DNA from: the human T2T-CHM13v2.0 reference genome, Homo sapiens
NCBI RefSeq assembly: GCF_009914755.1
Contig: NC_060946.1
Reading direction: 5' to 3' (one strand)
Length of the DNA: 64,000 bases
Below are positions 8,701 to 62,489 of the stretch, one piece after another; the stretch's first letter is position 1; every line of letters starts with the position of its first letter. A program made the position numbers and the translations under genes. The notes under the pieces were generated by a model. It made no database searches, had not been told where the DNA came from, and worked only from the letters and a program-made list of their open reading frames with translations.

Positions 8701-8838
8701 TTCACCATAGGCATCAAACCGTTCAGAAATATCCCTTTGTAGATTGTACAAAAAGACTGTTTCCAAACTGCTCAATCAAAAGAAAGTTTCAAACTGGTGA
8801 GATGAATGCACACATAACAGACGAGTTTCTCAGGAATC
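5726..8838 (-). repeat. Monomeric alpha satellite, reverse orientation
   Basis: Continuous ~171-bp monomers with the TTCCTTTTTCACCATAG A-box. Both CTCCAAATATCCA and CTCACAAATATCCC monomer variants are present. Confidence 0.97.
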
Positions 8839-17770: not shown

Positions 17771-18541
17771 AAGAATGGTTCAACTCTATGAGAAGAATGC
17801 ACACATCACAAATAAATTTCTCAGAAAGCTTCTGTCTACATTTTATATGAAGATATTTCCTTTTTCACCATAGGCCTCAAAGCACTCACAAATATCCCTT
17901 TGCAGATTCTACAAGACAAGAGTTTCCCATCTTCTCAATGAAAAGAAACGTTTACCGCTGGGAGATGAATGCACACATTACAAAGCAGTTTCTCAGAAAC
18001 CTTCTGTCTAGTTTTTATGTGAAGATATTTCCTTTTTCGCCATAGGCCTGAAAGCACTCACAAATATCTCATTGCTGATCCTACAAAAAGACTGTTTCCA
18101 CACTGCTCAGTCAAAAGAATGGTTCAACTGTTTGAGATGAGTGCACTCCAAACACAGAAGTGTCTCAGAAAGATTCTCTCTAGTTTTCATGTGAATATAT
18201 TTCCTTTTTCACCATTGGCCTCCAAGTGTTCACAAATATCCCTTTGCAGATTCTACAAAAAGACGATTTCCAATATGTTCAATCAACAGAAAGGTTCAAA
18301 TCTCTGAGACTAATTCACAAATGACAAAGCAGTTTCTCAGAAACATTCTTTCTAGTTTTTCTCTGAAGATATTTCCTTTTTCACCATAGGCTTCAAAGTG
18401 CTCACAAATATCCTTTTGCAGATTCTACAAAAAAAAGTTACCAAACTGCTCAAACAAAAGAATTGTTCACATCTGTGAGATGAATGCACACATCACAGAA
18501 AACTTTAGCAGAAAGCTTCTGTCTACATTTTATGTGAAGAT
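17771..18541 (-). repeat. Monomeric alpha satellite, reverse orientation (~4.5 monomers), truncated at the HSat3 junction
   Basis: Alpha motifs continue to ...GTCTACATTTTATGTGAAGAT (18541) and then stop abruptly mid-monomer. Confidence 0.96.
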
Positions 18542-20006
18542 CACAGTACAGTGGAGTGGAATGGAATGGAATGGAATGGAGTAGAGTGAAGTGGAGTGGT
18601 GTGGATTGGAGTGGAGAGGAGTGAAATGGAATGGAGTGGATTTCAAAAAAATGGAATGGAATGGAGTGGTGTGTAGTGGAATGGAATGGAGCAGAGTGAA
18701 GTGGAATAGAATGGAGTGGAATGGAATGGAGAGGAGTGGAATGGAATGGAGTGGAGTGGAGGGGATTGGAGTGGAGTGGAGGGGATTGGAGTGGAGTGGA
18801 GTGAAGTGGAGTTAAATGGAGTGGAATGGTATGGAATGGAAATGAATGGAATGGAGTGGAATGGAATGGAATGGAGTGGAGTGGAGTGGAATGGAGGGGA
18901 ATGGAGTGAAATGGAGTGGAGTGGAATCGAGTGGAGTGGAATGGAATGGAGTAGAATTGAACGGAGAGGAAATGAATGAAACGGAATGCAACACATTGGA
19001 ATGAAGTGGAGTGGAGTGCAGTGGAGTTGAGTGGAGTGGATAGGAATTCAGTGCAATGGAATGGAATGGAATGTAAGGGAGTGGAGTGGAGTGGAGTGGA
19101 GTGGATTGGAGTGGAGTGGAGTGGAGTGGAATGGAGTGGAATGGCATGGAGTGGAGTGGAATGGAATGGAATGGAATGAAATTGAATGGAATGGAAAGGA
19201 ATGGAATGCAACGGAATGGAACAGAATGGAGTACAGTGGAGAGGAGTTGAGTGGAGTGGATCGGAGTGCAGTGGAATGGAATGGAATGGAATGGAATGGA
19301 ATGGAATGGAATGGAATGGAAAGGAATGGGATGGAGAAGAGTGGAATGGAAAGGAGTGGAGTGGAATGTAATGGAATGTAATGGAAAGGAATGGGATGGA
19401 GTGGAGTGGAATGGAAAGGAGTGGAGTGGAATAGAATGGAGTGGAGTGGAATGGAATGGAGTGGAGTGGAGTGGAATGGAGTGGAGTGGAGTGGAATGGA
19501 ATGGAGAGGAGTGCAGAGTAATGGTATGGATTGGAATGGAATGGAAGGGAGTGGAGTGCAGTGGAGTGGATAGGAAGGCAGCGGAATTGAATGGAGTGGA
19601 ATGGAATGGAGTGGAGTAGAGTGGAGTGGAGTGGAGTTGAGTGGAATGGATCAGAGTGAAGTGGAATGGAATGGAATGGAGTGGAGTTTAGTGGAGTGGA
19701 GAGGAATTTAATGGAAAGGAGTGGACTGGAAAGTTTTGGAGTGGATAGGAAGGAATGGAACATAAAGGAATGGAATGGAATGGAAAGGAATGGAACGGAA
19801 TGGAGTGGAGTGCAGTGGAGTTGAGCCGAGTCAATGTGAGTGCAGTGGAAAGGAAAGGAATGGAATGGAACAGAATGGAACGGAATGGAACGGAATGGAA
19901 TAGAGTAAAGTGGGATGGAAGGGAGTGCAGGAGAGTAGAGTGGAGTGGAGTGCAGTGGAGTGGAGTGGAATGGAATGGAATGGAGTTGAATGGAATGGAA
20001 AGTAAT

Positions 20007-23000
20007 GGTGAAATGCATTGTGAGCTAAGATTTTGCCACTGCACTCCAGTCTGGGTGACAAAGTGAGATCCAAATGAAATAAACTAATCGAATGGAATGC
20101 AGTAGAATGGAAGGGAATGGAGTGGAGTGGAGTGGAGTGGAGTGGAGTGCAGTGGACTGGAGTGGAACGCAGGGAATGGAATGGAGTGGAGTGGAACGGA
20201 GGGGAATTGAATGGAGTAGAGTGGAATGGAATGGAAAGGAACAGAATGGAATGGAATGGAACAGAATAGAATGGAAGGTAACAGAATGAAGTGGAGTGGA
20301 GAGGAGTGCAATTGAGTGGAGTGGATCGGAATGGAGTGGAATGCAATGGAATGAAATGGCATGGAATGGAGTGGAATGGAATGGAGTGGAGTGGAGTGGA
20401 GTAGAGTGGAGTGGAGTGGAGTGGAGTGGAGTGGAGTGGAATGGAATGGAATGGAATGCAATGGAATGGTGAAATGTAATGTGAGCTAAGATTGTGCCAC
20501 TGCACTACAGTCTGGGTGACAGAGTGACATCCAATAGAAATAAAGGAATGGAATGGAATAGAGTAGAGTGGAATGGAATGGAGTGGAGTGGAATGGAATG
20601 CAGTGGAACGAAGTGGAATGGAGTGTACTGGAATGGAGTAAAGTGGAATTGAGTGGAACGAAAAGAAATGGAATAGAGAGGAATGGAATGGAATGGAGTG
20701 GAATGGAATGAAGTGGAATGGAGCATAATGGAATGGAGTGGAGTGGAATGGAGAGGAATGGAGAGGAAAGGAATGGAATGGAATGGATGGAATGCAATGG
20801 AATGGAATGGAATGGAATGGAATGGAATGGAATGGAATAGAGTGGAATGGAATGGAATGGAATGGAGTGGAATGGAACGCAAATCAGTGGCATGGAATGG
20901 AGTGGAGAGGAATGGAGTGGAATGAAGTGGAATGGAGTTGAATGGAGTGGAATGGAGTGAAATGGAGTGGAATGGAATGGAGTGGAGTGGAATGGAATGG
21001 AGTGGAATAGAAAGGAACGGTACAGAATGAAAAGGAACGGAATGGAACAGAGTGCAGTAGAGTGGAGTGAGAGGAGTGGATCGGAGTGCAGTGGAACGGA
21101 ATGGAATGGAATGGAGTGGAGTGGAGTGCAGTAATGGAATGGAGTAGAATGGAGTGGAGTGGAGTGGAGTGGAGTAATGGAATGGAGTAGAATGGAGTGG
21201 AATGGAAGGGAGTGCAGTGGATTGGAGTAGAATGCCGTGGAATGGAATGGAGTGGAGTGGAATGGAGTGGAATGGAATGGAATGGAATGAAATAGAATGG
21301 AATGGAAGGGAAAGGAGTGGAGTGGAATGGAGTGGAATGGAATGGAATGGAATGGAATGAAATAGAATGGAATGGAAGGGAAAGGAGTGGAGTGGAATGG
21401 AGTGGAATGGAATGGAATGGAATGGAATGGAATGGAATGGAATGGAATGAAATATAATGGAATGGAAGGGAACGGAGTGGAGTGAAGTGGAGTTGAGTGG
21501 AGTGGATTGGCCTGTAGTAGAATGGAATGGAATGGAAGGGAATGAAATGGAATAGAGTGGAGTGGAATGGAATGGAGTGGTATGGAGTGGAGTGGAGTGG
21601 AACGGAGTGAAGTGGAATGGAGTGGAGTGGAATGGAGTGGGATGGAATGAAATGGAATAGAGAGGAATGGAATGGAATAGAATGGAATGACGAGGAATAT
21701 AGTATAATGGAGTGGAGTGGAGTGGAATGGAGTTTAGTGGAATGGAGTGTAATGGAATGGAAAGGAATGGAAAGGAATGGAAAGGAATGCAATTGAGTGG
21801 AATGGAATGGAGTGGAGTGGAGGGGAGTGGAGAGGAGTGGAGTGGCGTGCAGTGGAATGGAGTGCTATGGAGTGGAGTGGAGTGGAATGGAATAGAGTGG
21901 AATGGAATGGAATGGTACAGAACGGAATGGAACAGAATGGAAAGGAGTGGAGTTGAGTGGATTGTAGTGGAGTAGAGTGGAGTGGGTTGGAATGCAGTGG
22001 AATGCAAGGGAATGGAATGGAATGGAGTGGAGTGGAGTGCATTGGAGTGGAGTGGATTGGAGGGGAATGGAGTAGAATGGAGTGGAATGGAATGGAGTGG
22101 AGAGGAATGGAGTGCAACGGAATGGAAGGAATGAAATGGAACCGAATGGAAGGGAATGGAGTGGAGTGGAGTAGATTTGAGTAGAGTGGAATGGAGTGCA
22201 GTGGAATGGATTGGAATGGAATGGAGTGGAGTGGAATGGAATGGAATGGAATGGAATGGAATGGAATGGATTGGAGTGGAGGGGAATAGAGTGGAGTACA
22301 GTGGAGTGGACAGGAATGGAGTGGAGTGGAATGGAATGGAATGGAATGGAGTGGAGTGGAAAGGAATGGAGTGGAGTGGAATGGAAGGGAGTGCATTGGA
22401 GTGGAATTGAGTGGAGTGGAGTGGAATGGAATGGAGTGGAGTGCAGCAGAATATAATGCAGTGGAATGGAATAGAATGGAGTGGAGTGGAGTGGAGTGGA
22501 ATGGAATGGAGTGGAGTGCAGCAGAATATAATGCAGTGGAATGGAATAGAATGGAGTGGAGTGGAGTGGAGTGGAATTGATTGGAGTGCAGTGGAATGGA
22601 ATGGAATGGAATGGAGGGGAGTGGAGTGGAGTGGAATGGAGAGGAACGAAATGGAGTGCAGTGGAATGGAATGGAATGGAATGGAGCGAAATGGAATGGA
22701 ATGGATTGGAATGGAATGGAATGGAATGGAAAGGAGTGGAGAGGAGTGGAGGGGAATGGAGTGGAGTGGAGTTGAGTGGAGTGGATCACAGTGCAGTAGA
22801 CTGGAATGGAATGGAATGAAATGGAATGGAGTGGAGTGGAGTGAAATTTAATGGAATGAAGTGGATTGGATTGGAGTGGAGTGGAGTGGAGCAGAGTGTA
22901 GTACAATGGAATGGAGTGGAGTGTAGTACAATGGAATGGAGTGGAGTGGAGTACAATGGAATGGAGTGGAGTGGAGTACAATGGAATGGAGTGGAGTGCA

Positions 23001-26000
23001 ATGGAATGTAATGGAATGGAGTGGAGTGGAGTGCAATGGAATCCAGTGGAGTGATGTGGAGTGGAGTGGAACGGAGTGGAGAGGAATGGCATGGAATGGA
23101 ATGGAATGGAATGGAATGGAATGGAATGGAATGGAATGGAATGGAATGGAAAGGAATGCAATGGATTGTTGAAGTGAAATATGAGCTAAGATTATGCCAC
23201 TGCACTCCGGTCTGGGTGACAGAGTAAGATCCAGTCGAAATAAACAACTGGAATGGAATGGAGTAAAATCGAAAGAAATGGAGTATACTGGAACAGAATG
23301 GAGTGGAATTGAGTGGAGTGGAGTGGATTGGAGTGGAGTGGAATGGAGTAAACTGGAATGGAGTAGAATAGAGTGAAATGGAATGGAATGAAAACAAGTG
23401 GAATGGAATGGAATGGAGTGGAATGGAGTTTAGTGGACTGGAATGCAGTGGAGTGGAATGGAGTTGAATTGAGTGGAATAGAATGGAATAGAATAGAGTG
23501 GAGTGGAATGGAATAGAGTGGCATGGAGTGGAGTAGAGTGGAGTGGAATGGAATGGAATAGAATGGAGTGAAATGGAGTGGTGGGGAATGGAGTGGACTG
23601 GAACGGAATGGAGTGGAATGGAACAGAAATGAAGGGAAGAAAATGGAATGAAGAGGAGTGCAGTGGAGTGGAGTGGAGTTGAGTGGAATGGATCAGAGTG
23701 GAGTGGATTGGAATGAACTGGAATGGAATGGAATGGAGTGGAGTGGAGTGAAGTAGAGTGGAGTAGAGTGGAGTGGAATGGAATGCAGTGGAGTGGAATG
23801 GAATGGAATGGAACGGAAAGCAATGGAATGGAACAAAATGGAATGGAACGGAAAGGAAAGGAGTGGTGTGGAGTGAAGTGGGGTGGAGTAGATGGAGTTG
23901 TTCAGAGTGCAGTGGAATGGAATTGAATTGAATTGAGTGCAGCAGAATGGAATGGAATGGAGTTGAGTGGAGTGGAGTGGATTGGAATGGAACGGAATGC
24001 AATGGAATGGTATTGAATGGAATGCAATGGAATGGAATGGAATGGAATGGAATGGAATGGAATGGAATGGAGTGGAATGGAATGGAATGGAATGGAATGG
24101 AATGGAATGGTGAAATGAAATGTGAGCAAAGATTGTGCCCCTTCACTGCACTCTAGGTGACAGAGTGAGATCAAGTCGAAATAAAGGAATGGAATGGAAT
24201 GCAGAAGAATGGAATGGAATGGAATGGAGTGCAGTGGATTGGAATGGAATGGAGTGGAAGGGAGTGGAATAGAGTGGAATGGAGTAAAGTGGAACAGAGC
24301 GGAGTGGAATGTAGTGGAATGGAGGACAATGGAGTAGAATGGAGTGGAATGCAATGGAACGAAATGGAATGGCATTTAATGGAGGGGAATGGAGTGGAAT
24401 GGAGAGGAGTGGAAAGAAATGGAAAGGAATGGAAGGGAATGGAGTGGAGTGGAGAGGAGTGGAATTGAGTGGAGTGGATTGCAGTGCAGTGAAATGGAAT
24501 GGAATGCAGTGGAGTGGAGTGAAGTGGAATGGAGTGGAATGGAATGGAGTAGAGTGTAAAGGAATGGAATGGAATGGATTAGAGTGTAAAGGAATGGAAT
24601 GGAATGGAACGGAATGGAATGGAATGAAAAGAAATGGATCAGAGTGGAGTGGAGTCCAGTGGAGTTGAGTGGAGTGGATCTGAGTGTACTGGAATGGAAT
24701 GGAATGGAATGGAATTGAATGGAATGGAATGGTATGGGATGGGATGGGATGGAATGGAATGGAATGGAATGGGATGGAAAGGAATGAAATGGAATGGAGT
24801 AGAGTGGAGACGAATGTAATGGACTGGAAGGAATTGGAGTGGAATGGAAGGGAATGGAATGGAGTGGAAAGGAATGGAAAAGAGTGGAATGGAATGGTGA
24901 AATGAAATGTGAGCTAAGATTGTGCCACTGCATTCCAGTATGGGTGACAGGATGAGATTCAATTGAAATAAAGGAATCGAAAGGAATGCAGTAGAATGGA
25001 ATGGAATGTATTGGAGTGGAGTGGTGTGGAGTGGAGTGGAGTGGAATGGAAGGGAGTGGAATGGAATGGAGTGGAGTAGAATGGAATGGAATGGAACAGA
25101 ATGGAATGGATTGGAACAGAATGGAATCGAACTGAAGGGAACGGAGTAGATTGGAGTGGAGTTGAGTTGAGAGGATCAGAGTGCAGTGGAATGGAATCAT
25201 TGGAATGGAATGGAATGAAATGGATTGGAGTGGAATGGAATGGAGTGGAGAGGAGTGGGGTGGGGTGGAGTGGAGTTGAACGGAAAGGAATGGAATGGAA
25301 TGGAATGGAATGGAATGGAATGGAAAGGTGAAATGTAATGTGAGCAAAAATTATGTCAGTGCACTCCAGTCTGGGGGTCAGAGTGAGATCCAATCGAAAT
25401 AAAGCAATGGAATGGAATGGAGTTGAATGGAATGGAATGGAGTGGATTGGCATGCAACAGAGTGGAATGGAGTGGAGTGGAGTGGAATGGAATGTAGTGG
25501 AGTGGAGTGGAGCGCAGTATAATGGAGTGGAATGGAGTGAAATGGAGTGAAATGGAATGGAGTAGATTGGAGTAGAATGGAACGGAATGGCACGGAATGC
25601 TATGGAATGAAATGGAATGAAATGGAACGTATTGGAGTGGAGTGGAGATGAGTGGATTGGATTGGAGTGCAGTGGAATGGAATGGAATGGAATGAAATGG
25701 AATAGAATGCAATGGAGTGGAATGGAGTGGAGTGGAGTGGAAAGGAATGGAATGGAGTGGATTGGAATGGAATGGAACGGAATTCAGTGGAATGAAAGGG
25801 AACGGAGTGGAGTGGAGTGGAACGGAGTTGAGTGGAGTGGATCAGAGTGCTGTGGAAAGGAATGGAATGGAATGGAAAGGAGTGGAGTGGAATGGAATAA
25901 AATGGAGTGGAGAGGAGTGGAGTGGAGTAGAGTGGAGTGGAATGGAATGGAAAGGAGTGGAATGGAGTGCAATGGAATGGAATACAGTGGAATAGAATGT

Positions 26001-29000
26001 AATGGAGGGAAGTGGAATGGAATGGAATGGAATGGAATGGAATAGAGTGGAGTGGAATGGAATGAAGTGGAGTCGAACTGAATGGAGTGGAGTGGAGTGA
26101 AATTGAATGGTGTGGAGTGGAAGGCAAAGAATGGAATGGAATGAAGTGGAGTGGACTGGATTGCAGTGGAGTGGAATGAATTGGAATGGAGTGGAATGAA
26201 ATGGAATGCAATGGAAAGGAAAGCAGTGGAGTGGAATGGAATGGAATGGAGTGGAGGCCAGTGGAGTGGAGTGGAATGGAAAGGAGTGGAAAGAAATGGA
26301 ATGGAATGGAACGGAATGGAGTGGTGTGGAGTGGAGTGGAATTGAGTGCAGTGGATCAGAGTGCAGTTAAATGGAATGGAATGGAGTGCAGTGGAGTGGA
26401 ATGGAGTGGAATGCAATGGAGTGGAGCGGAAAGGAATGGAATGGAAACAGAATGGAATTTAATGGAATGAAAAGGAATGGATTGGAGTGTAGTGGAGTGC
26501 AGTGGAGTTGATTGGAGTGGATCTGAGTGTAGTGTAATAGAATGGAATGGAATGGAATGGAATGGAATGGAATGGAATGGAATGGAATGGAGTGGAATGG
26601 AATGGGGTGGAGTGGAGTGGAGTGGAATGGAATGGAGTGGAGTGGAATGGAATGGAGTGGAGTGGAATGGAATGGAGTGGAGTGGAGTGGAATGGAATGG
26701 AATGGAATGGAGTTGGATGGAATGGAATGGTGAAATGAAATGTGAGCTAAGATTGTGCCACTACACTCCAGTCTGGGTGTCAGAGTGAGATCCAATCAAA
26801 ATAAAGTAATGGAATGGAATGGAGTTGAATGGAATGGAATGGTGTGGATTGGCATGCAACGGAGTCGAATCGAGTGGAGTGGAGTATAGTGGAGTGGAAT
26901 GGAGTGAAATGGTGTGGAATGGAATGGAGTGCAGAAGAATGGAATGGAGTGGAATGGCACAGAATGGTACAGAATGAAATGGAACTGAATGGAAAGTATT
27001 GGAGTGGAGTGGAGTTGAGTGGACTGGATCGGAGTGCAGTGGAATGGAATGGAATGGAATGGAATGGAATGGAATGGAATGGAAGAGTGGAGTGGAGTGA
27101 AGTGGAGTGGAATACAGTAGAATGCAGTGGAATGGAATGGAGTGGATTGGAGGAGAATGGAACGGAATGGAATGGAATGGAAAGGATTTGAGTGGAATGT
27201 AAGGGATCGGAGTGGAGTGGAGTGGAACGGAGTTGAGTGGAGTGGGTCAGAGTGCAGTGGAATGGAATGGAATGGAATGGAGTGGAGTGGAGTGGAACGG
27301 AATGGAGTGGAGTGGAGTGGAATGGAATCGAATGGAATGGAGTGGAGTGGAGTGGAGTGGAGTGGAATGGAATGCAGTGGAATGGAATAGAATGGAGTGG
27401 AATGGAATGGAATACAGTGGAATAGAAAGGAATGGCGGGGAGTGGAATGGAATGGAATAGAATGGAATGGAATGGAATGGAATGGAATGGAATGGAATGG
27501 AATGGAATGGAATGGAGTGGAATGGAATAGAGTGAAGTGGAATGGAATGGAGTGGAATGGAATAGAGTGAAGTGGAATGGAGTGGAGTGGAGTGGAGTAA
27601 AATAGAGTGGAATGAAGTGGAATGGAATGGAGTGGATTGAAATGGAGTGAAGTGGAGTGTAATGGAATGGAGTGGAATGGAATGAATTGGAGGAGATTGG
27701 AGTGAAGTGCAGTGGAGTGGATTGGAGTGCTGTGGAATGGAATGGGATGGAATGGAGTGGAGTGGAGTGGAGTGGAATGGAGTGGAATGGAATGGAATGG
27801 AATGGAACGGAACGGAATGGAACAGAATGGAAAGGAGTGGAGTGGAGTGTAGTTGAGCGGAATAGATCGGAGTACAGTGGACTGGAATGGAAAGGAAAGT
27901 AATGGAGTGGAGTGGAGTGGAATGGAATGGAGTGGAGTGGAGTGAAGTGGAGGGGAGTTGAGTGGAGTCGAATGGAATGAAATGGAGTGGAATGGAGTGG
28001 AATGGAATGGAATGGAATGGAATGGAATGGAAAGGAATGGAAAGGTGAAATGAAATGTAAGCTAAAATTCTGCCACTGCACTCCAGTCTGTGTCACAGAG
28101 TGAGATCCAGTCGAAATAAAGGAATGGAATGCAATGGAGTAGAATGGAATGGAATGGAGTGGAGTAGAATGGAATGGTGTGGAATAGAGTGTAATGGAGT
28201 GGAATGGAATGGAGAGGAGTGGAATGGATTGGAAAGGTGTGGAATGGAATGGTATGGAAGGGAGTGGAATGGAATGGAATGGAGTAGAATGGAGTGGAGT
28301 GGAATGGAAAGGAGTGGAAAGAGTGGAGTGTAATGGAGTGTAATGGAGTGAAATGGAGTGACGTGGAAAGGAGTGGAATGGAGCTGCATTGACAGGAATG
28401 GAATGGAGTGGAGTGGAATGGAATGGAGTGGAGTGGAGTGGATGGAAGTGGAATGAAGTGGAATAGAGTGAAATGAAGTAGGGTGGACTTTAGTGGAGTG
28501 GAATGGAATGGAGTGAAAAGTAATGGAATGGAATTGATCTGTGTAGAGTGGAGTGGAGTTCAGTGCAGTGGATCGGAGTTCAGTGAAATGGAAAAGAGTG
28601 GAATGGAATATAGTGGAGTGGAGTGCAGTACAGTGGAGTAGAGTGAAATGGAGTGGAATGTCATTGAATAGAATGCATTCGAGTGGAATGGAATGGAATG
28701 GAAAGGAATGGAAAGGAATGGAACGGAATGGAATGGAACGGAAAGGAACATAGTGCAGTGGAGGGTAGTTGATTGAAGTGGAGCGGAGTGCAGTGGAATT
28801 GAATGGAATAGAATTAATTGGAATGGAGTAAAGTGGAATGGAATGGAATGGATTGGAATGGATTGGAGTGTAGTGAGTGGATCAGATTGCAGTGGAATGG
28901 AATGGAATGGAATGGAAAGGAGTGAAGTGGAGTGGAGTGGATTGGAGTGGAATGGAGTAGAATGGAGTGGAATGGAATGGAGTGCATTGGAATGGAATGG

Positions 29001-32000
29001 AATGGAAAGGAACGGAATGAAATGTGATGGAATGGAATGGAACAGAAGGGAACGGAGTGGAATGGAGTGGAGTGCAGTGGAGTTGAGTTGAGTGGATCAA
29101 AGTGAAGTGTTATGGAATTGAAAGCAATGGAATAGAATGGAATGCAGGAGAGTGGAATGGAATGGAGTGGAGTGGAATGGAATGGAATGGAGTGGAGTGG
29201 AGTGGATTGGAGTGGAATGGAATGGAGTGGAGTAGTGTGGAGTGGAGTGGTGTGGAGAGTATAGGAGTGACGTGGAGTGGAATGGAATGGAATAGAATGG
29301 AATCGTATGGAATGCAGTGCAGTGGAATGGAATTTCATGGAATGGAGTGGGGTGGAGTGAAATTGAATGGTGTGGAGTGGAAGGGAATGGAACGGAATGG
29401 AATGAAGAGGAGTGGAGTGGATTGGAGTGGAGTGGAATGGATTGGAATGGAGTGGAATGAAATGCAATGCAAGAGAATGGAAAGCAGTGGCATGGAGTGG
29501 AATGGAATGGAGTAGAATGTAATGGAGAGGAGTGGAAAGAAATGGAATGGAACGGAAGGGAATGGAGTGGAGTGGAGTGGAATTGAGCAGAGTGGATCAG
29601 AGTACAATGAAATGGAATGGAATGGAGTGGAGTGGAGTGGAATGGAGGGGAATGGAATGGAGTGGAGTGGAAAGGAATGTAATAGAACGTAATAGAATGG
29701 AATGAAATGAAAAGGAATGTATCAGAGTGGATTGGGGTGCAGTGGAGTTCAATGGAGTGGATCTGAGTGTAGTGGAATAGAACGGAATGGAATGCAATGG
29801 AATGGAGTGGAGTGGAATTGAATGGAGTGGAGTGGAGTCGAGTGGAATGGAATGGTGAAATGAAATGTGAGCTAAGATTGTGCCACTGCACTCCAATCTC
29901 GGTGACAGAGTGAGATTCAGTTGAAATAAAGGAATCGAATGAAATGGAACAGAATGGAATGGAATGGAATGGAGTGGAGTGGTGTGGAGTGTAGTGGAAT
30001 GGAATGGAATGGAACGGAATGGAATGGATTGCAATGGAATGGAATCGAACCGAATGGAATGGAGTAGAGTGGAGTGGACTGGAGTTGAGTGGAGTGGATC
30101 GGAAAGCAGTGGAATGGAAACATTGGAATGGAATGGAATGGAATGGAATGGAATGGAATGGAGTGGAGTGGAGTGGAATGGAATGGAGGGGAGTGGAGTG
30201 GAATGGGGTGGAGTGGAGTGGAATGCAAAGGAATGGCATGGAATGGAATGCAAAGGTGAAATGTAATGTGAGCTAAGATTGTGCCACGGCACTTCAGTCT
30301 GGGTGTCGGAGTAAGATCCAATCGAAATAAAGTAGTGGAATGGAATGCAGTTGAACGGAATGGAATGGAGTGGATTAGCATGCAACGGAGTGGAATGGAG
30401 TGGAGTGGAGTGGAATGGAATCGAGTGGAGTCGAGTGGAGTACAGTGGAGTGAAATGGAGTGGAATGGAATGGAGTGGATTGGAATAGAATGGAGTGGAA
30501 AGGCACGGAACGGTATGGAATGAAAAGGAATGGAATGGAACATATTGGAGTGGAGTGGAGTTGAATGGTGTGGATCGGAGTGCAGTGGAGTGGAATGGAA
30601 TAGAATGGAGTGGAGTGGAGTGGAGTGGAATGCAGTAGAATGGAGTGGAATGGAATGGAATGGAGTGGATTGGAGTGGAATGGAACGGAATGGAATGGAA
30701 TGGAATGCAATTGAGTGGAATGGAAGCGAACGGAGTGGAGTAGAGTGGGACGGAGTTGACTGGAGTGGGTCGGAGTGCAGAGGAATGGAATGGAATGGAG
30801 TGCAGAGGAATGGAATGGAATGGAAGGGAAAGGAATAGAGTGGAGTGGAGTGGAAAGGAATGGAATGGATTGGAGTGGAGTGGATTGGAGTGGAGTGGAA
30901 AGGAACAGAAGGGAGTGCAATGGAATGGAATACAGTGGAATAGAATGGAATGGAGGGGAGTGGAATGGAATGGAATGGAGTGGAATGGAAAGGAGTGGAG
31001 TGGAATGGAATGGAATGGAAAGGAATGGAATGGAATGGAGTGGAGTGGAATGGAATGGAGTGAAGTGGAATTGAATGGAGTGAGTAAAATGGAGTGGAGT
31101 GAAGTAGAATGGAAGGGAGTGGATTGAAATGGAGGGAAGTGGAGTGTAATGAAATGGAGTGTAATGGAATGGAGTGGAGTGGACTGGAGTGCAGTGGAGT
31201 GGATCGGAGTGCTGTGGAATGGAATGGAATGGAATGGAACGGAATGGAATGGAATGGAGTGGAGTGCAGTGGAGTAGAGTGGAGTGGAGTGGAATGGAGT
31301 GTAAAGGAATGAAATGGAATGGAATGGAATGGAATGGAATGGAATGGAATGGAATGGAAAGGAGTGGACTGGAGTGAGGTTGAGAGGAATGGATTGGAGT
31401 GCAGTGGACTGGAATGGAAAGGAAAATAACGGAGTGGAGTGGAATGGAATGGAGTGGAGTGGAATGGATTGGAATGGAGAGGTATGAAATGGAGTGCAAT
31501 ATAATGGAAAGCAGTGGCATAGAGTGAAATGGAATGGATTGGAGTGCAGTGGAGTGGAGTGGAATGGAGTGGAGTGCAGCGGATTGGAGTGCAGTGGAGT
31601 GGAGTGGAACGGAGTGGAATGGAAAGGAATGGAATGGAATGAAATGGAATGGTGAAATAAAACGTGAGCTAAGATTGTGCCACTGCACTCCAGTATGGGT
31701 GACAAAGTAAGATCCAGTCTAAATAAAGGAATGGAACGGAATGGAGTAAAATGCAATGGAATGGAGTGATGTGAAATGCAATGGAGAGGAAAGGAGTGGA
31801 GTAGAGTGGATTAGAATGGAGTGGAATGGAATGGAGTGGAGTAGAACGGAACAGAACAAAACGGAATGGAACGGAAGGGAACAAAGTGGAATAGAGTGGA
31901 GTGGAGTTGATTGGAGGGGATCGGATTGCAGTGGAATGTAATGGAAGGTAATGGAATGGTATGGAGTCGAGAGGAGTGGAGTTTAGTGGAGTGGAGTGGA

Positions 32001-35000
32001 GTTTCGTGGAGTGGAGTGGAATGGAGAGGATTGGAGTGGAGTGGAGTGGAGTGGAATGGAGTGGAGTGGAAAGGAATGGAATTGAGAGGAATGGAATGGA
32101 GTGGAGTGCAATGCAGTAGAGTGGAATGGACTGAAATGGAGTGGAATGGAATGGAGTTCAGTGGAGTGGAGTGGAATGGATTAGAATGGAGTGGAGTGGA
32201 ATGGAGTGGAATGGAATGGACTGAAATGGAGTGGAATGGATTGGAGTTTAGTGGAGTGGAGTGGAGTGGAATGGAGTGAATTGGAGTGGAGTGGAGTGTA
32301 ATGGAGTTGAATGGAAAGGAACAGAATGGAATGGAATGGAACGGAGTGTAGAAGAGTTGAGTGGATTGGAGTTGAGTGGAGTGTGTCGCAGTACAGTGGA
32401 ATGGAATGGAATGGAATGGAATGGAATGGAATGGAGTGTAGTGGAGTGGAGTTTAATGTAGTGGAGTGGAATGGAGTGTAGTAGAGTGGAGTGGAGAGGA
32501 CTGGAGTGGAATGTGAAGTTACGGAGTGGAATGGCGTGGAGTGGAGTGGAATGGAATGGAATGGAATAGAATGGAATGCAATAGAAAGGAATGGAATGCA
32601 ATAGAAAGGAATGGAATGCAATGGAATGGAATGCAATGCAATGCAATGGAATGGAATGGAATGGAATGGAATGGAATGGAACGGAATGGAACGGAATTGA
32701 GTGGAGTGGAGAGTAGTGGAGTGGCATGGAATGGAATGGAATGGAAAGGAATGGAATGGAATGGTGAAATGTAATGTATGCTAAGATTGTGCCACTGCAC
32801 TCCAGTCTGGGTGACAGAGTGAGATCCGATTAAAATAAGGGAATGGAAAGGAATGAAGTAGAATGGAATGGAATGGAATAAAGTGGAATGGAATGGATTG
32901 GAATGGAGTGGAGTGGATTGGAATGGTGTGTAAAGGAGTGGAATGAAATGGAATGCAATGGAGTGGAATGTAATGGAGAGAAATGGAATGGAGTCGAGTG
33001 GAGAGGAATGGATTGAGGTGGAATGAAGTGGATTGGAACACAGTGGAATGGAGTGGAATGGAATGGAGTGGAGTCAAGTTGAGTGGAGTGGAGTGGAATG
33101 GAATGACGTAGAATGGAATGGAACGGAACAGAACAGAATAGAATGGAATGGAATGGAATGGTTGGAGTGGAGTGGAGTTGGGTGGAGTTGGGTGGAGCAG
33201 AGTGGAGTGGGGTGGTGTTGATTAGAATGGAACAGATTACCATAGAATGGAATGGACTGGAATAGAAAGGTGTGCACAGGAATGGAGAGGAGTTGAGTGG
33301 AATGAAGTGGAATGGAAAGGAATGGAATGGAATGAAATGGAATAGTGAAATGTAATGTATTCTAAGATTGTGCCACTGAACTCCAGTCTGGGTGACAGAG
33401 TGAGATCCAGACGAAACAAAGGAATGCAATGGAATGCAGTAGAATGGAATTGAATAGAGTGGAGCGAAATGGAATGGAGTGGAATGGAGTAGAGTGGAAT
33501 GGAATGGAGTGGATTGGAGTGGTTTGGAAAGGAGTGGAATGGAGTGGAATGGAATGGAGTTCAGTAGACTATAGTGGAGTGGAGTGGAATAGAGTGAAAT
33601 TGTGTTGAGTGGAGTGGAATTGAATGGCATGGAATGGAATGGAACAGAACAGAACAGAATGGAACAGAATGGAAAAGAGTGGAGTGGAGTGGAGTTGCGT
33701 GGAGGGTATCGGAGTGCAGTGGAATGGAATGGAATGGAATGGAATGGAATGGAGTGGAGTGGAGTGGTGTTTAGTGGAGTGGAGTGGAGTGAAGTGGAAT
33801 GGAGTGTAGGGGGTGGAGTGGATTGGAGTGGAATGGAGTGGCATGGAGTGGAGTGGAGTGGAATGGAATGGAATGGAACAGAATGCAATGCAACGGAAAG
33901 GAATGGAATGGAACGGAACGGAACACAGTTGAGTGGAGTGGAGTGGAGTTGAGTGGAGTGGAGTGGGGTTGAGTGGAATGGAATGGAATGGTGAAATGGA
34001 ATGTGAGCTAAGATTGTGCCACTGCACTCTTCTCTGGGTGACAGAGTGAGATCCAGTCGAAATAAAGGAATGGAACGGAATGGAGAAGATTGGAATGGAA
34101 TGGATTGAAGATGAATGGAATGGAGTGGCATGGAGTGGAGTGCAGTGGAATGGACTGGAGTGGAATGGATTGCAGTATAATGAAGTGGAATTGAGTGGAA
34201 TGGAATGGAATGGAATGGGATGGAATGGAATGAAATGCAGTGGAATGGAGTGGAGTGGAATGGAGGAGAATTTGGTGGAATGGAGTAGAGTGGAGTGGAA
34301 TGGAGTAGAGTGGAGTGGAATGGAATGGAATGGAGTGGAGTCGAATGGAGTAAAGTGGAATCGAATGGAGTGGAATGGAAAGGAACGGAACAGAATGGAA
34401 GGCAATAGAACGGAGTGGAGTGGAGTGAATTGAATTGGAGTTTTCTGGAGGGGATAGGAGAGCACTGGAATGGAATGGAATTGAATGGAATGGAATGAAG
34501 TGGAGTGGAGTGGAATGGAGTGGAGTGGAATGAAGTGGAGTGGAATGGATTGGAATGGAATGGAGTGGAATGGCATGGAAATGAATGGAATGAAAAGGAA
34601 TGGAATTGAACGGAATGAAACGGAATGGAATGGAACAGAATGGAATTCATTGGAACAGAACATAGTGGAGTGGAGTGGATTTGACTGGAATGGAATTGGA
34701 CGGAATGAAACGGAATGGAATGGAACAGAATGGAATTCAATGGAACAGAACGTAGTGGAGTGGAGTGGAGTGGATTTGACTGGAGTGGATCGGAATGAAG
34801 TGGAATGGAATGGAATGGAAAGGAATGGAATGGAAAGGGGTGGAATGGAATGGAATGGAGTGGAGTGGAATCGAGTGGAATGGAATGGAATGGTGAAATG
34901 TAATGTCAGCTAAGATTGTGCCACTGCACTCCAGTCTGGGTGACACAGCGAGATCCAATCGAAATAAAGGAATGGAATGGAATGGAGTAAAGAGGAATGG

Positions 35001-38000
35001 AATGAAGTGGAATGGAGTGGAATGGAGTGGAGTGGAGTGGAATGGAGTGGAATGGAATGGAATGGAATGGAATGGAATGGAGTGGAATGAAATCGAATGG
35101 AGCAGAATGGAGTGCAGTGGAGTGGAGTGGAACGGATTCAAATGGAATGGATTGGAATGGAATGGAGTGGAATTGAGTGGAATGGAATGGAGTGGAATGG
35201 AATGGAGTGGAGTGAAGTGGAGTGGAATGGAGTGGAATGGAGTGAAATGGAATGGAATGGAGTGGAATGGAATGGAGTGGAATGGTATGGAGTGGAGTGA
35301 AGTGGAGTGGAATGGAGTGGAATGGAGTGAAATGGAGTGGAATGGAATGGAATGGAGTGGAATGGAACGAAACAGAATGGAATGGAATGGAGTGAAATGC
35401 AGTGTTTCGGAGTACAGTGGAATGGAGTGGAACGGAATGGAGTGGTGTGGAATGGAATGGAATGGAGTAGAATGGAATGGAATGGATTGGAATGTAGTGG
35501 AGTGGAATGGAGTGAGTGGAACGGAGTGAAATGGAGTGGAATGGAATGGAGTTTAGTGGTGTGGATTGGAGTGGAATGGAGTGGATTGGAACGGATTGAA
35601 ATGGAGTGGAATAGAATGTAATTTAGTGGCGTAGAGTGGAGTGGAATGGAGTGGAATGGAGTGGAGTGGAGTGGAGTGCAATGCAGTTGAATGGAATGGA
35701 ACAGAACGGAATGGAATGGAACAGATTGGAACAGAGTGTAGTGGAGTTGAGTGGAGTGGAGTTGAGAGGAGTGTATTGGAGCACAGTGGAATGTAATGTA
35801 ATGTAATGTAACGGAATGGAATAGAAGGGAATGTAGTGGAGTGGAGTTTAATGTAGTGGAGTGGAATGGAGTGTATTGGAGTGGATTGGAGTGGAGTGGA
35901 CAGGAGTGGAATGGAGTCTATTGGAGTGGAGTGGAGTGGAGTGGACAGGAGTGGAATGGAGTGGTAGAGAGTGGAATGGAGTGGAGTGCAGTAGAGTGGA
36001 ATGGAATGGAACGGAAGGCAATGCAATGGAAAGGAATGGAATGGAATGGAATGGAATGGAACAGAATGGCGTTGAGTGGAGTGCAGTGGAGTTGAGTGGA
36101 GTGGAAAGGAGTGGACTGGAGTGGAGTGGAATGAACTGGAATGGCATGAAATGTAACGGTGATATGAAACGTGAGCTAAGATTGTGCCACTGCATTCCTG
36201 TCTGGGTGACAGAGTGAGACCCAGTCAAAATAAAGGAATGGAATGGAATGGAGCAGATCGTAACTGAGTAGAGTGGAGTGGAATGGAATGGAGTGGCATG
36301 GAGTGGAGTGGAGTGGAATGGAGTAGAGTGGAATGGATTGCAGTATAACGGAGTGGAATTGAGTGGAGTGGAATGAATGGAATGGAGTGGAATGGAATGG
36401 AATGCAGTGGAATGGAGTGGAATAGAGTGGAGTGGAGTGGAGAGGAATGGAGTGGAATGGAATGGAATGGAATGGAATGGAACGGAGTGGAGTGGAATGG
36501 ACTGGAGTGGAATGGAATGTAGTGGAATGGAATGGAATGGAACAGAACGGAATGGAATGGAATGGAATGCAGTGGAGTGGAGTTGTGTGGAGTGGATGGG
36601 AGTACAGTGGAATGGAATAGTATGGAATGGAATGGAGTGGAGTGGAGTGGAGTGAACTAGAGTAGAATGGAGTGGAATTGAATGGAGTGGAGTGGATTGG
36701 AATGGAATGGAATGGAATGGAGTGGAATAGAAAGGAATGGAATGGAACAGAACAGAATGGAAAGGAACAGAATGGAATGGAACGGAACGGAACATAGTGG
36801 AGTGGAGTGGAGTGGAGTGGAACGGAGTGCAGTGGAATGAAATTCAATGGAATGCAATGGAATGGAATGGAGTGGAGTGGAATGGAATGGAGTGGACTGG
36901 AGTGGAGTGGAGTGTCATGGACTGGAACGGAATGGTATGGAATGGATTGGAATGCAATGGAATAGAATGGAATGGAATGGTGAAATGTGACGTATGCTAT
37001 GATTGTGCCCCTGCACTTCAGTCTGGGTGACAGAGTGAGATCCAATTGAAATAAAGAAATGGAATGGAATGAAGTAGAATGGAATGGAATGGAGTAAAGT
37101 GGAATTGAATGGATTGGAATGGAGTGGAGTGGAGGGGAATTTAGTGTAATGGAGTTTAATGAAAAGGAATGGAATGGAGTGGAATGTAATGGAGAGGAAA
37201 GGAATGGAGTGGAGAAGAATTGAATGGATTGAGGTGGAATGGAGTGGAATGGAATGCCGTGGAATGGAGTGCAATGGAATGGAATGGAATGCAGTGGAAT
37301 GGAATGGAATGGAGTGGAATGGAACGGAATGGAATGGAGTGGAATGGAATGGAGTGGAGTGGAGAGGAGTGGAGTGGAATGGAATGGAGTGGAATCGAAC
37401 GGAACAGAACAGAATGGAACGGAATGGAATGGAACGGAATGGAGTGTAGGAGTAGATCAGACTGCAGTGGAATGGAATGGAATGGAATGAAGTGCAGTGG
37501 AGTTTAGGGGAGTGAAGTGGAATTGAGTTGATTGGAGTGGAGCGGAGTGGAGGGGAATGGACTGGAATGGAGTGGAATCAAAAGGAGTGGAGTGGAATGC
37601 AATGAAATGTAATGTAATGGAATGGAATGGAATGGAGAGGAGTGGAGTGCAGTGGAGTGGAATATAGCGGAATGGAGAGAAGTGGAGTGCAGTGGAATGG
37701 AGTGGAGTAGAATAGAATGGTTGGGTATGGAACGCAACGGAACAGAATGGTAGGGAACAGAATTGAACTTAGTAGATTGGAGTGGAATGGAGTTGAGTGG
37801 AGTGGAGTTGAGTGGAGTGGATTGGAGTGCAGTGGAATGGAATGGAATGGAATGCAATGGAATGGAATGGAATGCTGAAATGAAATGTGAGCTAAGATTG
37901 TGCCACTGCTCTCCAGTCTGGGTGACAGAGTGATATCCAGCTGAAATAAAGGAATGGAATGGAGCATAAAAGAATGGAATTGAGTGGACTGGAATGGAAT

Positions 38001-62000: not shown

Positions 62001-62489
62001 GTGGAGTTGATTGGAGTGGATCACAATGCAGTGGAATGGAATGGAATGGAATGGAATGGAATGGAATGGAATGGAAGGGAGTGGAGTGGAGTGGAATGGA
62101 GTGGAATGGAATGGAGTGGAGTGGGATGAAATGAAATGGAAAGGAACGGAGTGGAATGCCATGGAAGGGAATGGAATAGAATGGAATGGAATGCAACGGA
62201 ATGGAATGGACTGGAGTGGAGTTGAGTGGAGTAGAATGGATAGCAGTGGACTGGAGTGGAGGGGAGTTGAGAGGAGTGGATCAAAGTGCAGTGGAATGGA
62301 ATGCAATGGAATGTAATGGAATGAAGTGGAGTCGAATGGAATGGAATGGAGTGGAGTGGAGTAGAGTGGCGTGGAATGGAATGGAGTGCAATGGAATGCA
62401 ATGGAATGGAATGGTGAAATGAAATGTGAGCTAAGATTGTGCCACTGCACTCCAGTCTGGGTGACAGAGTGATATCCAGTCGAAACAAA
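20007..62489 (+). mobile_element. ~40 dispersed copies of a 77-bp Alu-3'-end-derived cassette, amplified as part of the satellite (span gives first to last copy)
   Basis: Consensus GGTGAAATGAAATGTGAGCTAAGATTGTGCCACTGCACTCCAGTCTGGGTGACAGAGTGAGATCCAGTCGAAATAAA versus the Alu right-arm end GTGAGC(TAT/CGA)GATCGCGCCACTGCACTCCAGCCTGGGCGACAGAGCGAGAC(CCT/TCC)GTCTCAAAA. Approximate TGAGC positions: 20021, 20482, 23182, 24123, 24910, 25341, 26743, 28058, 29868, 30269, 31665, 32777, 33358, 34004, 34906, 36172, 36993, 37888, 38855, 39537, 40454, 41685, 42267 (truncated), 43257, 44074, 44985, 47017, 47594, 48613, 48984, 50664, 52041, 52828, 53463, 54145, 56720, 57347, 60533, 61500, 62427. Confidence 0.92.
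45050..46330 (+). repeat. Locally homogenised tandem expansion within HSat3 (105-bp and 490-bp periods)
   Basis: GGATTGAAGTGGAATGGATTGGAAAGG recurs with TTGAAG at ~45161, 45266 and 45371 (105 bp). GTGGGCTGAAGTGGAATAGATTGG occurs at 45441 and 45931 (490 bp). Confidence 0.85.

What the first reader, a model, noticed from the sequence alone, without database searches (positions are those of the whole stretch)
19946..31694. Cassette core is the exact reverse complement of the satellite's own recurrent motif, giving built-in fold-back potential
Seen: the cassette is essentially the only C-rich island on the G-rich strand. Its core CCACTGCACTCCA (20036-20048) is perfectly complementary to TGGAGTGCAGTGG at 19946-19958 and 20143-20155. 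A 15-bp perfect pair occurs at 31183-31197 / 31680-31694. The motif recurs throughout the array. The cassette's departure from Alu (CCAGCC to CCAGTC, or CCAATC in some copies) extends complementarity to the satellite's GACTGG/GATTGG variants. Inference: a G-strand transcript or ssDNA could form many alternative 13-16-bp stems (looped, multivalent RNA-RNA contacts). Alternatively, this complementarity mediated the original Alu capture or seeded the GCAGT/GGAGT pentamer variants.
Basis: partly seen in the sequence, partly recalled or inferred. Interest (0 to 1): 0.7.

Follow-up and report, generated by a model that had tools for sequence, protein, structure and literature searches.

The report
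Alu fragment complementary to satellite pentamers
A short piece of an Alu element, copied many times inside a human satellite-3 array on chromosome 22, really is complementary to a common variant of the satellite, but this looks like an accidental property of every Alu and not a selected fold-back device.

Summary
Every coordinate is exact, with 12 intact cores (CCACTGCACTCCA) and 48 exact complements (TGGAGTGCAGTGG) in the 45.5-kb HSat3 array (window 18541-64000).

The cassette (39 copies, all on +) is the last ~62 nt of an Alu plus an A-rich tail remnant. The core is the ordinary Alu 13-mer, found at least 393,344 times in this genome. Four dispersed Alus show the same complementarity.

The satellite motif differs by one base from the commonest 13-mer, TGGAGTGGAGTGG (432 copies). 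It is about as frequent as other one-base variants (52, 48, 42, 42, 38...).

The motif also occurs in cassette-free stretches of the same satellite type, at 28 per 370 base 13-mers against 146 per 1385 in cassette-bearing stretches (Fisher p=0.14). A weak positive trend remains. The underlying GCA[AG]T pentamer makes up 4-11% of in-register pentamers in all HSat3 sampled, including chr9, chr15 and Y.

The core is no better conserved than the rest of the cassette (intact in 37 of 202 copies, the median for cassette 13-mers). Motifs lie no closer to cassettes than random.

In silico the stem forms, but mostly because a C-rich island sits in G-rich RNA.

Verdict: real, physically plausible, no evidence of selection, seeding or capture. 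Low interest.

The parts
18541..64000 (+). GGAAT/GGAGT-rich HSat3 array, G-rich on the + strand; runs off the window end
   Evidence: Pentamer density and C content switch at about 18541. GC skew jumps to about +0.8. Of 8498 tokens, 33% are GGAAT, 25% GGAGT and 2.3% GCAGT. TRF reports period 5/20 from 18550.
20007..20083 (+). Cassette copy named in the finding: about 77 nt, an Alu 3' end fragment plus A-rich tail remnant, with intact core at 20036-20048
   Evidence: Alignment to four dispersed Alus.
19946..19958 (+). Satellite motif TGGAGTGCAGTGG, 90 nt upstream of the core; its MFE partner
   Evidence: The stem is in the MFE.
20143..20155 (+). Satellite motif TGGAGTGCAGTGG, 107 nt downstream of the core
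31651..31727 (+). Cassette copy with intact core at 31680-31692 (CCACTGCACTCCAGT at 31680-31694)
31183..31197 (+). ACTGGAGTGCAGTGG, the only 15/16-nt complement of the CCAGTC form in the array
28044..28120 (+). Cassette with intact core (28073)
29854..29930 (+). Cassette with intact core (29883) followed by CCAATC; the only copy whose 16-mer matches the 11 GATTGGAGTGCAGTGG sites
32763..32839 (+). Cassette with intact core (32792)
34892..34968 (+). Cassette with intact core (34921)
44060..44136 (+). Cassette with intact core (44089); the copy used as query for other loci
48599..48675 (+). Cassette with intact core (48628)
52814..52890 (+). Cassette with intact core (52843)
53449..53525 (+). Cassette with intact core (53478)
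61486..61562 (+). Cassette with intact core (61515)
62413..62489 (+). Cassette with intact core (62442)
20468..60595 (+). Span holding the 27 further cassettes, whose cores carry at least one substitution. Starts: 20468, 23168, 24109, 24896, 25327, 26729, 30255, 33344, 33990, 36158, 36979, 37874, 38841, 39523, 40440, 41671, 43243, 44971, 47003, 47580, 48970, 50650, 52027, 54131, 56706, 57333, 60519. Each is about 77 nt.
   Evidence: blastn and alignment. For 11 of the 39 core variants no perfect 13-nt complement exists anywhere in the array.

Best explanation
The cassette is the 3'-terminal ~62 nt of an Alu element plus a decayed A-rich tail. It entered a GGAGT-rich HSat3 array once, with the Alu sense strand on the G-rich strand. 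It was then co-amplified with its flanking pentamers and spread to arrays on many chromosomes.

Its 13-nt core is the ordinary, highly conserved Alu sequence CCACTGCACTCCA. Read on the other strand this is GGAGT-GCAGT-GG, which happens to look like two HSat3 pentamers. The satellite partner TGGAGTGCAGTGG differs by a single G-to-C change from the array's commonest 13-mer. It belongs to a position-2 C pentamer variant (GCAAT/GCAGT) found in all HSat3.

The complementarity is therefore an accidental by-product of inserting any sense-oriented Alu into this satellite type. A G-strand transcript or single-stranded DNA would be expected to form such stems. Nothing in the sequence shows that the pairing is maintained, that it created the motif, or that it mediated the capture.

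Shown: the identity of the cassette, the counts, the conservation and the predicted folds. Inferred: a single insertion by retrotransposition followed by co-amplification, and the absence of function.
For: 1. Alu identity.
- A 37-nt stretch of the cassette matches 939 genomic sites at up to 2 mismatches, most of them dispersed; the reversed control gives 0.
- Alignment with four dispersed full-length Alus covers their last ~62 nt up to the A tail.

2. The core is generic Alu.
- It occurs 195,346 + 197,998 times in the genome, against 22 for the reversed control.
- In each of the four dispersed Alus, the core and up to three windows overlapping it are the only 13-mers in 305 nt whose complement occurs in the satellite.

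3. Single origin.
- 39 of 39 cassettes in the window and all 206 counted across the sampled loci lie in the same orientation relative to the G-rich strand.
- Boundaries are shared and the GGAAT-type flanks are conserved.

4. The motif is an ordinary variant.
- It has 48 copies against 432 of the base 13-mer. Other single substitutions have 52, 42, 42, 38, 37, 37 and 32 copies.
- GCAGT is the 6th most common pentamer at 2.3%. The 1.5x excess over a pentamer shuffle falls within the 0.8-1.9x range of other variants in GGAGT context.

5. The motif does not depend on the cassette.
- Cassette-free 10-kb stretches on chr1 and chr9 carry 9, 6 and 4 motifs and 44, 40 and 31 GCAGT. The window has 10.6 and 44 per 10 kb.
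- TGCARTGG makes up 4.0-11.4% of in-register pentamers in all 18 loci, including the chr9 main array (8.3%), chr15 (5.3%) and Y (9.0%).

6. No selection on the core.
- Mean column identity is 0.919 against 0.913 for the rest of the cassette; rank 39 of 127 windows; intact in 12 of 39.
- Over 202 cassettes from 11 loci the values are 0.888 against 0.884, rank 22 of 65. The core is intact in 37, which equals the median of all cassette 13-mers.

7. No spatial coupling. The median motif-to-core distance is 291 nt, against 304 nt for random placement (5-95% range 226-389).

8. Folding is mostly compositional.
- Cassette-centred 480-nt RNAs fold at -54.1 kcal/mol, against -25.5 for cassette-free satellite.
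- Permuting or reversing the core costs only 8-10 kcal/mol.
- Cassettes with mutated cores fold almost as well (-53.4 against -55.9).
Against: - A random sequence of Alu composition rarely has a 13-mer matching an abundant satellite 13-mer (101 of 20,000 shuffles). The coincidence between Alu and HSat3 is therefore not trivial, though it is judged after the fact.
- Cassette-bearing stretches have somewhat more motif per base 13-mer (0.105 against 0.076, Fisher p=0.14). Cassette density correlates with that ratio (Spearman rho 0.62, p=0.017, 14 non-independent loci). GCAGT/GGAGT is 0.087 against 0.071, nominal p=0.047. A small contribution of the cassette to motif abundance is not excluded.
- The specific order of the core does add 8-10 kcal/mol.
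- The local fold is modestly better than shuffles: z -1.99 for RNA (6 of 200 shuffles as good) and z -2.67 for DNA (1 of 200).
- Only 185 kb of GGAGT-rich HSat3 was sampled, and 40 kb of that was cassette-free or cassette-poor.
- No transcript or structure-probing data could be examined.
Confidence: 0.85

Rival explanations
1. Functional fold-back. G-strand HSat3 transcripts use the C-rich Alu core as a built-in pairing site for many alternative 13-16-bp stems. These would give looped, multivalent RNA-RNA contacts that matter for the RNA's behaviour, for example in nuclear stress bodies.
For: - The stem is predicted in the MFE.
- At least 10 of 13 core bases pair with outside satellite in 38 of 39 cassette-centred folds.
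- Cassettes roughly double the predicted folding energy.
- There are 662 inverted pairs of at least 15 nt, and the 25 longest all involve the core.
- HSat3 is transcribed from the G-rich strand under stress (abstract of PMC2241877; passage of PMC10505914). Such a transcript would carry both partners.
Against: - The core is no better conserved than the rest of the cassette.
- For 11 of the 39 core variants no perfect partner exists anywhere in the array.
- Motifs are not placed nearer to cassettes than random.
- Mutated cores fold nearly as well as intact ones.
- The MFE has an ensemble frequency of 0.0001 and z is only -1.99 (aside).
- Stems of 13-16 bp are shorter than the duplex lengths usually cited for dsRNA sensors and ADAR (recalled, not checked here).
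- The papers seen place stress-induced transcription mainly at 9q12. Transcription of this chr22 array was not examined.
Confidence: 0.07
2. Seeding. The inverted Alu core templated the GCAGT (and GGAGT) pentamer variants in the satellite by fold-back-mediated conversion, so the motif descends from the cassette.
For: - GCAGT is the commonest C-containing pentamer and the most frequent change to C among single substitutions.
- There is a weak positive association between cassette density and the motif/base ratio.
- Cassettes were found only in GGAGT-rich arrays.
Against: - The motif differs from the base 13-mer by one substitution, so no template is needed.
- Cassette-free stretches carry it at about 70% or more of the density.
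- GCAAT/GCAGT makes up 4-11% of pentamers in HSat3 types that have no cassette at all.
- Complementarity does not extend beyond the pentamer-compatible 13 nt. TGGAGTGCAGTGGC occurs 0 times and the GACTGG 16-mer once.
- The link between cassette and GGAGT-richness is confounded by common descent.
Confidence: 0.04
3. Capture. Pre-existing complementarity between the Alu core and the satellite motif mediated the original capture of the Alu fragment, by annealing or template switching and not by ordinary retrotransposition.
For: The complementary motif is a general HSat3 variant and so probably predates the insertion. The coincidence is unlikely for a random sequence.
Against: - The core lies in the middle of the fragment, with about 29 nt of cassette on its 5' side and about 35 nt on its 3' side. 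It is not at a junction.
- The fragment ends in an A-rich tail remnant and is truncated at its 5' end. By general knowledge, not tested here, this is the usual signature of L1-mediated insertion.
- Target-site duplications could not be read in the decayed pentamer flanks.
Confidence: 0.03

Closest known systems
Human satellite 3 (classical satellite III, (GGAAT)n) of the acrocentric short arms, GGAAT/GGAGT type
   Same: - It is a pentameric G-rich/C-poor tandem array lying next to alpha satellite on chr22p.
- Arrays of the same type occur on chr1, 3, 4, 7, 9, 10 and 13.
- HSat3 acrocentric subfamilies and the 1366-bp pTRS-47 unit (HSat3A4) are described in PMC4022460 (passages).
   Different: - None of the eight subfamily-marker 24-mers printed in Table 1 of PMC4022460 occurs in the window array, so the subfamily is undetermined.
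- Cassette spacing is irregular (371-3186 bp), not a fixed higher-order unit.
HSat1B (DYZ2-type), a composite satellite of AT-rich sequence and Alu fragments
   Same: An Alu-derived piece has become part of a tandemly amplified satellite unit (passage of 10.1101/2021.07.12.452052, citing Frommer 1984).
   Different: Here the host is HSat3. Only about 62 nt of Alu are kept, the period is irregular, and the fragment is complementary to a host-repeat variant.
Inverted-repeat Alu pairs (IRAlus) forming long dsRNA in transcripts (recalled from general knowledge, no call)
   Same: Alu-derived sequence gives intramolecular duplex potential in a transcript.
   Different: IRAlus give duplexes of roughly 300 bp between two Alus. 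Here a single 13-16-nt stretch pairs with non-Alu satellite. The longest imperfect arms are 27 nt at 74% and 19 nt at 95%.

Membership tests
HSat3 (classical satellite III) | Tandem (GGAAT)n-derived pentamers with strong strand asymmetry | tested here: met
   8365 of 8498 tokens are 5-mers; 33% are GGAAT and 25% GGAGT. GC skew is about +0.8.
HSat3 (classical satellite III) | Assignment to a named subfamily by its marker 24-mer (Table 1 of PMC4022460) | tested here: inconclusive
   0 hits for 8 marker 24-mers in the window array. Positive controls worked: 3B5 in chr9:50M, 3A6 in chrY:30M, 3A4 in chr10:38.98M. Only the single most common marker per subfamily was available.
Alu SINE (fragment) | Sequence homology to the Alu right-arm 3' end | tested here: met
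   Alignment to four dispersed Alus over their last ~62 nt. The 37-mer matches 939 mostly dispersed sites.
Alu SINE (fragment) | Full dimeric ~300-nt structure | tested here: not met
   Homology starts near GTGAGC; upstream is satellite. It is a fragment, not an element.
Alu SINE (fragment) | Poly-A tail and target-site duplication of a retrotransposition event | tested here: inconclusive
   An A-rich remnant (GAAATAAA) sits where the tail should be. No duplication could be called in the pentamer flanks.
Composite satellite with embedded transposon fragment (HSat1B-like) | The fragment is amplified with the satellite, in one orientation and with shared boundaries | tested here: met
   39 of 39 cassettes in the window and all 206 across the sampled loci are in + orientation. 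Flanks are conserved.
Composite satellite with embedded transposon fragment (HSat1B-like) | Regular higher-order period | tested here: not met
   Spacing in the window is 371-3186 bp. Density varies from 0 to 25 per 10 kb among loci.
Selected RNA/DNA fold-back element | Pairing bases conserved above background, or compensatory change | tested here: not met
   Core 0.919 against 0.913 and 0.888 against 0.884, with 37 of 202 intact, equal to the median. For 11 of the 39 core variants no perfect partner exists in the array.
Selected RNA/DNA fold-back element | Fold clearly more stable than composition explains | tested here: inconclusive
   z -1.99 for RNA and -2.67 for DNA. The native core is worth 8-10 kcal/mol over a permuted core, out of a cassette effect of about 29 kcal/mol.
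Selected RNA/DNA fold-back element | Duplex observed in cells | not testable with these tools
   No RNA or structure-probing data are available.
Rfam RNA families | Match to any curated family (for example SRP RNA) | tested here: not met
   0 matches at E up to 10 in 19900-20700.

The most novel reading that the evidence does not exclude
GGAGT-rich HSat3 G-strand RNAs carry two mutually complementary words. One is the sense-Alu core in the cassette. The other is UGGAGUGCAGUGG, about 10 copies per 10 kb of satellite. Together they could act as a multivalent RNA-RNA interaction platform. In cis this would loop the transcript between cassettes and motifs. In trans the satellite motif could pair with the same core in sense-Alu-containing nuclear RNAs, since the genome holds at least 393,000 copies. 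This could influence condensate formation or the retention of Alu-bearing RNAs. The weak excess of the motif in cassette-bearing arrays would then be a trace of co-amplification favoured by this pairing.
Probability: 0.05. Interest if true: 0.6.

Novelty: new member of a known kind. Interest (0 to 1): 0.15.

Why it matters
It matters little as it stands. The result documents that one HSat3 type, spread over at least seven chromosomes, has an Alu 3' fragment built into its repeat. It also explains a striking-looking complementarity as a by-product of Alu sequence and ordinary pentamer variation.

It is useful as a caution. Any sense-oriented Alu in GGAGT-rich HSat3 will show this 'fold-back' signature, and antisense Alu words can be mistaken for satellite pentamers, and the reverse.

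If the pairing were ever shown in cells, it would give HSat3 RNAs a defined structural element and a possible link to Alu-containing RNAs.

Tried and rejected
- Fuzzy-regex cassette search and a first folding run with 680-nt windows both timed out with no output. I replaced them with blastn and 480-nt folds.
- Rfam scan of 19900-20700 at E up to 10 gave no match, so there is no curated-family label for the cassette.
- Subfamily typing with the eight 24-mers of PMC4022460 Table 1 gave 0 hits in the window. The subfamily is left open.
- The idea that motifs cluster near cassettes is rejected: median distance 291 nt against 304 nt for random placement. Twelve of the 48 motifs do lie 80-117 nt from a core.
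- The idea that CCAGTC co-evolved with GACTGG is rejected. There is one 16-mer site in the array. Across 202 cassettes the canonical CCAGCC (48) is commoner than CCAGTC (30).
Four regions were obtained instead.
- Literature searches and passages read found no description of an Alu fragment inside HSat3 or of this complementarity. Supplements of the T2T centromere and repeat papers, and RepeatMasker tracks, were not seen and may list these fragments.
Full report
**What is there**

The window is CHM13 chr22:11842001-11906000, as the hub annotation states and one search confirms.
- Positions 1-18541 are divergent 171/342-bp tandem repeats, i.e. alpha satellite.
- From about 18541 to the window end the sequence is a G-rich pentameric satellite.
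- When the satellite between cassettes is tokenised, 8365 of 8498 units are 5-mers: 33% GGAAT, 25% GGAGT, then GGAAC, GGAAA, GGATT and GCAGT (2.3%, 6th).
- This is HSat3 of the GGAAT/GGAGT type.
- Its named subfamily could not be fixed. None of eight marker 24-mers from Table 1 of PMC4022460 occurs in it, although positive controls worked.

**Check of the observation**

- Every coordinate in the finding is exact.
- The window holds 12 exact cores (CCACTGCACTCCA, all +) and 48 exact complements (TGGAGTGCAGTGG), all within the array.
- blastn with the copy at 20007-20095 finds 39 cassettes, all +, 81-100% identical, spaced 371-3186 bp apart.
- Of 40 islands with at least 6 C in 20 nt, 39 are cassettes.
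- The repeat finder lists 662 inverted pairs of at least 15 nt. The 25 longest all involve the core, with best arms of 27 nt at 74% and 19 nt at 95%.
- The claimed extension through CCAGTC/CCAATC is true but rare. The 16-mer GACTGGAGTGCAGTGG occurs once. GATTGGAGTGCAGTGG occurs 11 times, but only one cassette (29854) has the matching intact 16-mer.

**What the cassette is**

- A 37-nt stretch of it matches 939 sites in the genome at up to 2 mismatches. Most are dispersed over all chromosomes, and the reversed control gives 0.
- Aligned with four dispersed full-length elements (L005-L008), the cassette covers their last ~62 nt up to the A tail. An A-rich remnant (GAAATAAA) sits where the tail should be. 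Upstream of GTGAGC the sequence is satellite.
- It is therefore a 5'-truncated Alu 3' end with the sense strand on the G-rich strand.
- Flanks of about 25-40 nt on each side are conserved and of GGAAT type, so the amplified unit is larger than the Alu piece.
- All 206 cassettes counted across the sampled loci have the same orientation relative to the G-rich strand. This fits one insertion followed by co-amplification and spread.
- A passage of the T2T centromere preprint describes a precedent for an Alu piece inside a human satellite unit, HSat1B.
- My searches and the passages read found no description of this HSat3 cassette. Supplements and repeat tracks were not seen.

**Is the complementarity special to this cassette?**

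No.
- The core occurs at least 393,344 times in the genome, against 22 for the reversed control.
- In each of the four dispersed Alus, the core and up to three windows overlapping it are the only 13-mers in 305 nt whose reverse complement is present in the satellite. The core has the same 48 partners there.
- Any sense-oriented Alu placed in this satellite would show the same feature.

**Is the satellite motif special?**

- It differs by one G-to-C change from TGGAGTGGAGTGG, the array's commonest 13-mer of that register (432 copies).
- Among the 39 single-substitution variants it ranks 4th. The first two are the GGAAT/GGAGT alternations (434, 394). Then come 52, 48 (the motif), 42, 42, 38, 37, 37 and 32.
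- It is the most frequent change to C.
- A pentamer shuffle gives 31.7 +/- 4.9 against 48 observed; 2 of 1000 shuffles reach 48. Other variants flanked by GGAGT range from 0.8x to 1.9x, and four of them are 1.3-1.9x. Mixed GGAAT/GGAGT combinations are depleted (0.4-0.64x).
- The excess therefore reflects the block structure of GGAGT-rich and GGAAT-rich zones.

**Cassette-free arrays**

- The 22-mer with the motif in satellite context occurs 417 times genome-wide. The 100 listed sites lie on chr1, 3, 4, 7, 9, 10 and 13; the other 317 were not listed.
- I sampled 24 stretches of 10 kb.
- Thirteen stretches are GGAGT-rich like the window.
  - Three have no cassette (chr1:128.02M, chr1:128.03M, chr9:76.655M) and one has two cassettes. 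They carry 9, 6, 4 and 9 motifs, and 44, 40, 31 and 33 GCAGT.
  - The window has 10.6 motifs and 44 GCAGT per 10 kb.
- Pooled, the motif per base 13-mer is 28/370 (0.076) in cassette-free or cassette-poor stretches and 146/1385 (0.105) in cassette-bearing ones (Fisher p=0.14).
- GCAGT/GGAGT is 0.071 against 0.087 (nominal p=0.047).
- Cassette density correlates with the motif ratio (Spearman rho 0.62, p=0.017, 14 loci).
- These counts are not independent, so I read this as a weak residual trend. It is compatible with sub-lineage differences and does not show dependence.
- HSat3 of other types (chr9 main array, chr15, Y) has almost no GGAGT, so it lacks the 13-mer. Even so, the in-register share of position-2 C pentamers (TGCARTGG) is 4.0-11.4% in all 18 loci, including those types.
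- The GCA[AG]T variant is thus a general HSat3 feature that does not need the cassette.

**Conservation**

- In the window, the core columns average 0.919 identity to the consensus, against 0.913 for the rest of the cassette. The core ranks 39th of 127 sliding windows and is intact in 12 of 39 copies.
- Over 202 cassettes from 11 loci (2 of 204 were dropped for lying at a locus end) the values are 0.888 against 0.884, rank 22 of 65. The core is intact in 37, exactly the median of all cassette 13-mer windows, which range from 15 to 80.
- For 11 of the 39 core variants in the window, no perfect 13-nt partner exists anywhere in the array.
- Outside the window lineage the canonical CCAGCC (48 of 202) is commoner than CCAGTC (30). 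The 'departure from Alu' is therefore a local transition and not a shared adaptation.

**Placement**

The median distance from a motif to the nearest core is 291 nt. Random placement gives 304 nt (5-95% range 226-389). Twelve of the 48 motifs lie 80-117 nt away, just outside the conserved flanks.

**Folding**

- The 241-nt stretch 19930-20170 folds with the 13-bp stem between 19946 and 20036.
  - RNA: -46.4 kcal/mol, z -1.99, 6 of 200 shuffles as good, MFE frequency 0.0001.
  - DNA: -16.6 kcal/mol, z -2.67, 1 of 200 shuffles as good.
- In 480-nt RNA folds centred on each cassette, at least 10 of 13 core bases pair with satellite outside the cassette in 38 of 39 cases, including mutated cores.
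- Cassette-centred RNAs average -54.1 kcal/mol, against -25.5 for 39 cassette-free stretches.
- For the 12 intact cores, the native sequence gives -55.9, a permuted core -47.6 and a reversed core -45.9.
- Mutated-core cassettes average -53.4.
- So a C-rich island in a G-rich RNA will pair whatever its order. The exact word adds roughly a third of the effect.

**Chance**

- Against random sequence the match is unusual. Of 20,000 mononucleotide shuffles of an Alu, 1592 shared any 13-mer (either strand) with the satellite. Only 101 shared one that occurs at least 10 times.
- This coincidence is between the Alu family and HSat3 pentamers, and it was noticed after the fact.
- From general knowledge, not tested here, the Alu 3' region descends from 7SL RNA and so cannot derive from the satellite. 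The results above argue that the satellite variant does not derive from Alu.

**Mechanism and rivals**

- Most likely (0.85): one Alu insertion that is 5'-truncated and oriented sense-on-G-strand, followed by co-amplification, with accidental complementarity.
- The capture hypothesis is disfavoured. The core sits mid-fragment, with about 29 nt of cassette on its 5' side and about 35 nt on its 3' side, and the fragment ends in a tail remnant.
- The seeding hypothesis is disfavoured by the cassette-free data and by the lack of any extension beyond the pentamer-compatible 13 nt. TGGAGTGCAGTGGC occurs 0 times.
- The functional fold-back hypothesis cannot be excluded without RNA data. HSat3 is transcribed from the G-rich strand under stress (abstract of PMC2241877; passage of PMC10505914), so a transcript would carry both partners. 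The sequence shows no sign of maintenance, however.

**Verdict**

The feature is ordinary in kind, a transposon fragment amplified within a satellite. Interest is low.

Noticed in passing
window 1-18541: Divergent alpha satellite (171/342-bp periods, 70-80% matches). The consensus orientation flips at about 1932, and there are gaps in the tandem rows at 4152-5737 and 16595-17771. It abuts the HSat3 array directly at 18541-18550.
   Followed up: partly
window 22579, 25660, 31392, 31537, 31582, 37820, 41592, 43174, 43921, 49873, 52755: The 16-mer GATTGGAGTGCAGTGG recurs 11 times. GGATT precedes the motif in 9 of 48 cases although GGATT is only 2.4% of pentamers. This points to a longer amplified sub-unit (GGATT-GGAGT-GCAGT-GG) within the array.
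   Followed up: partly
L009, L030 (chr1:128.02-128.04 Mb), L032 (chr9:76.655 Mb) versus L010 (chr1:128.595 Mb), L031 (chr9:76.675 Mb): Cassette density in the same satellite type ranges from 0 to 25 per 10 kb, even between stretches 10-20 kb apart on chr9. The shortest spacings in the window (371-461 bp) resemble the roughly 400-bp spacing of the dense arrays.
   Followed up: partly
window 38383-38404: The only C-rich island outside a cassette (AACCCAATTGAACGGACTGCAG). Its origin was not examined.
   Followed up: no
window cassette flanks, e.g. 44035-44059 and 44137-44175: About 25-40 nt on each side of the cassette are conserved and of GGAAT type, with GGAGT depleted in the 50 nt upstream. 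A recurrent GGAGTAGAATGG lies about 30 nt downstream. The amplified unit is at least about 140 nt.
   Followed up: partly
L025 (chrY:40.00 Mb) and L028 (chr21:9.50 Mb): These non-HSat3 stretches share a few 13-mers with the satellite (for example TGGAGTGCAATGG, GTGGAGTACAATG). I suspect, without checking, that these are decayed antisense-Alu words, which would show how antisense Alu can mimic HSat3 pentamers.
   Followed up: no
202 cassettes from 11 loci: The six bases from core position 11 onward (the last three core bases plus the next three) fall into several states: CCAGCC 48, CCAGTC 30, ACAGCC 25, CCAGGC 14, CCAGAA 11. These may mark cassette sub-lineages that could be used to trace the spread of this satellite between chromosomes.
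   Followed up: no
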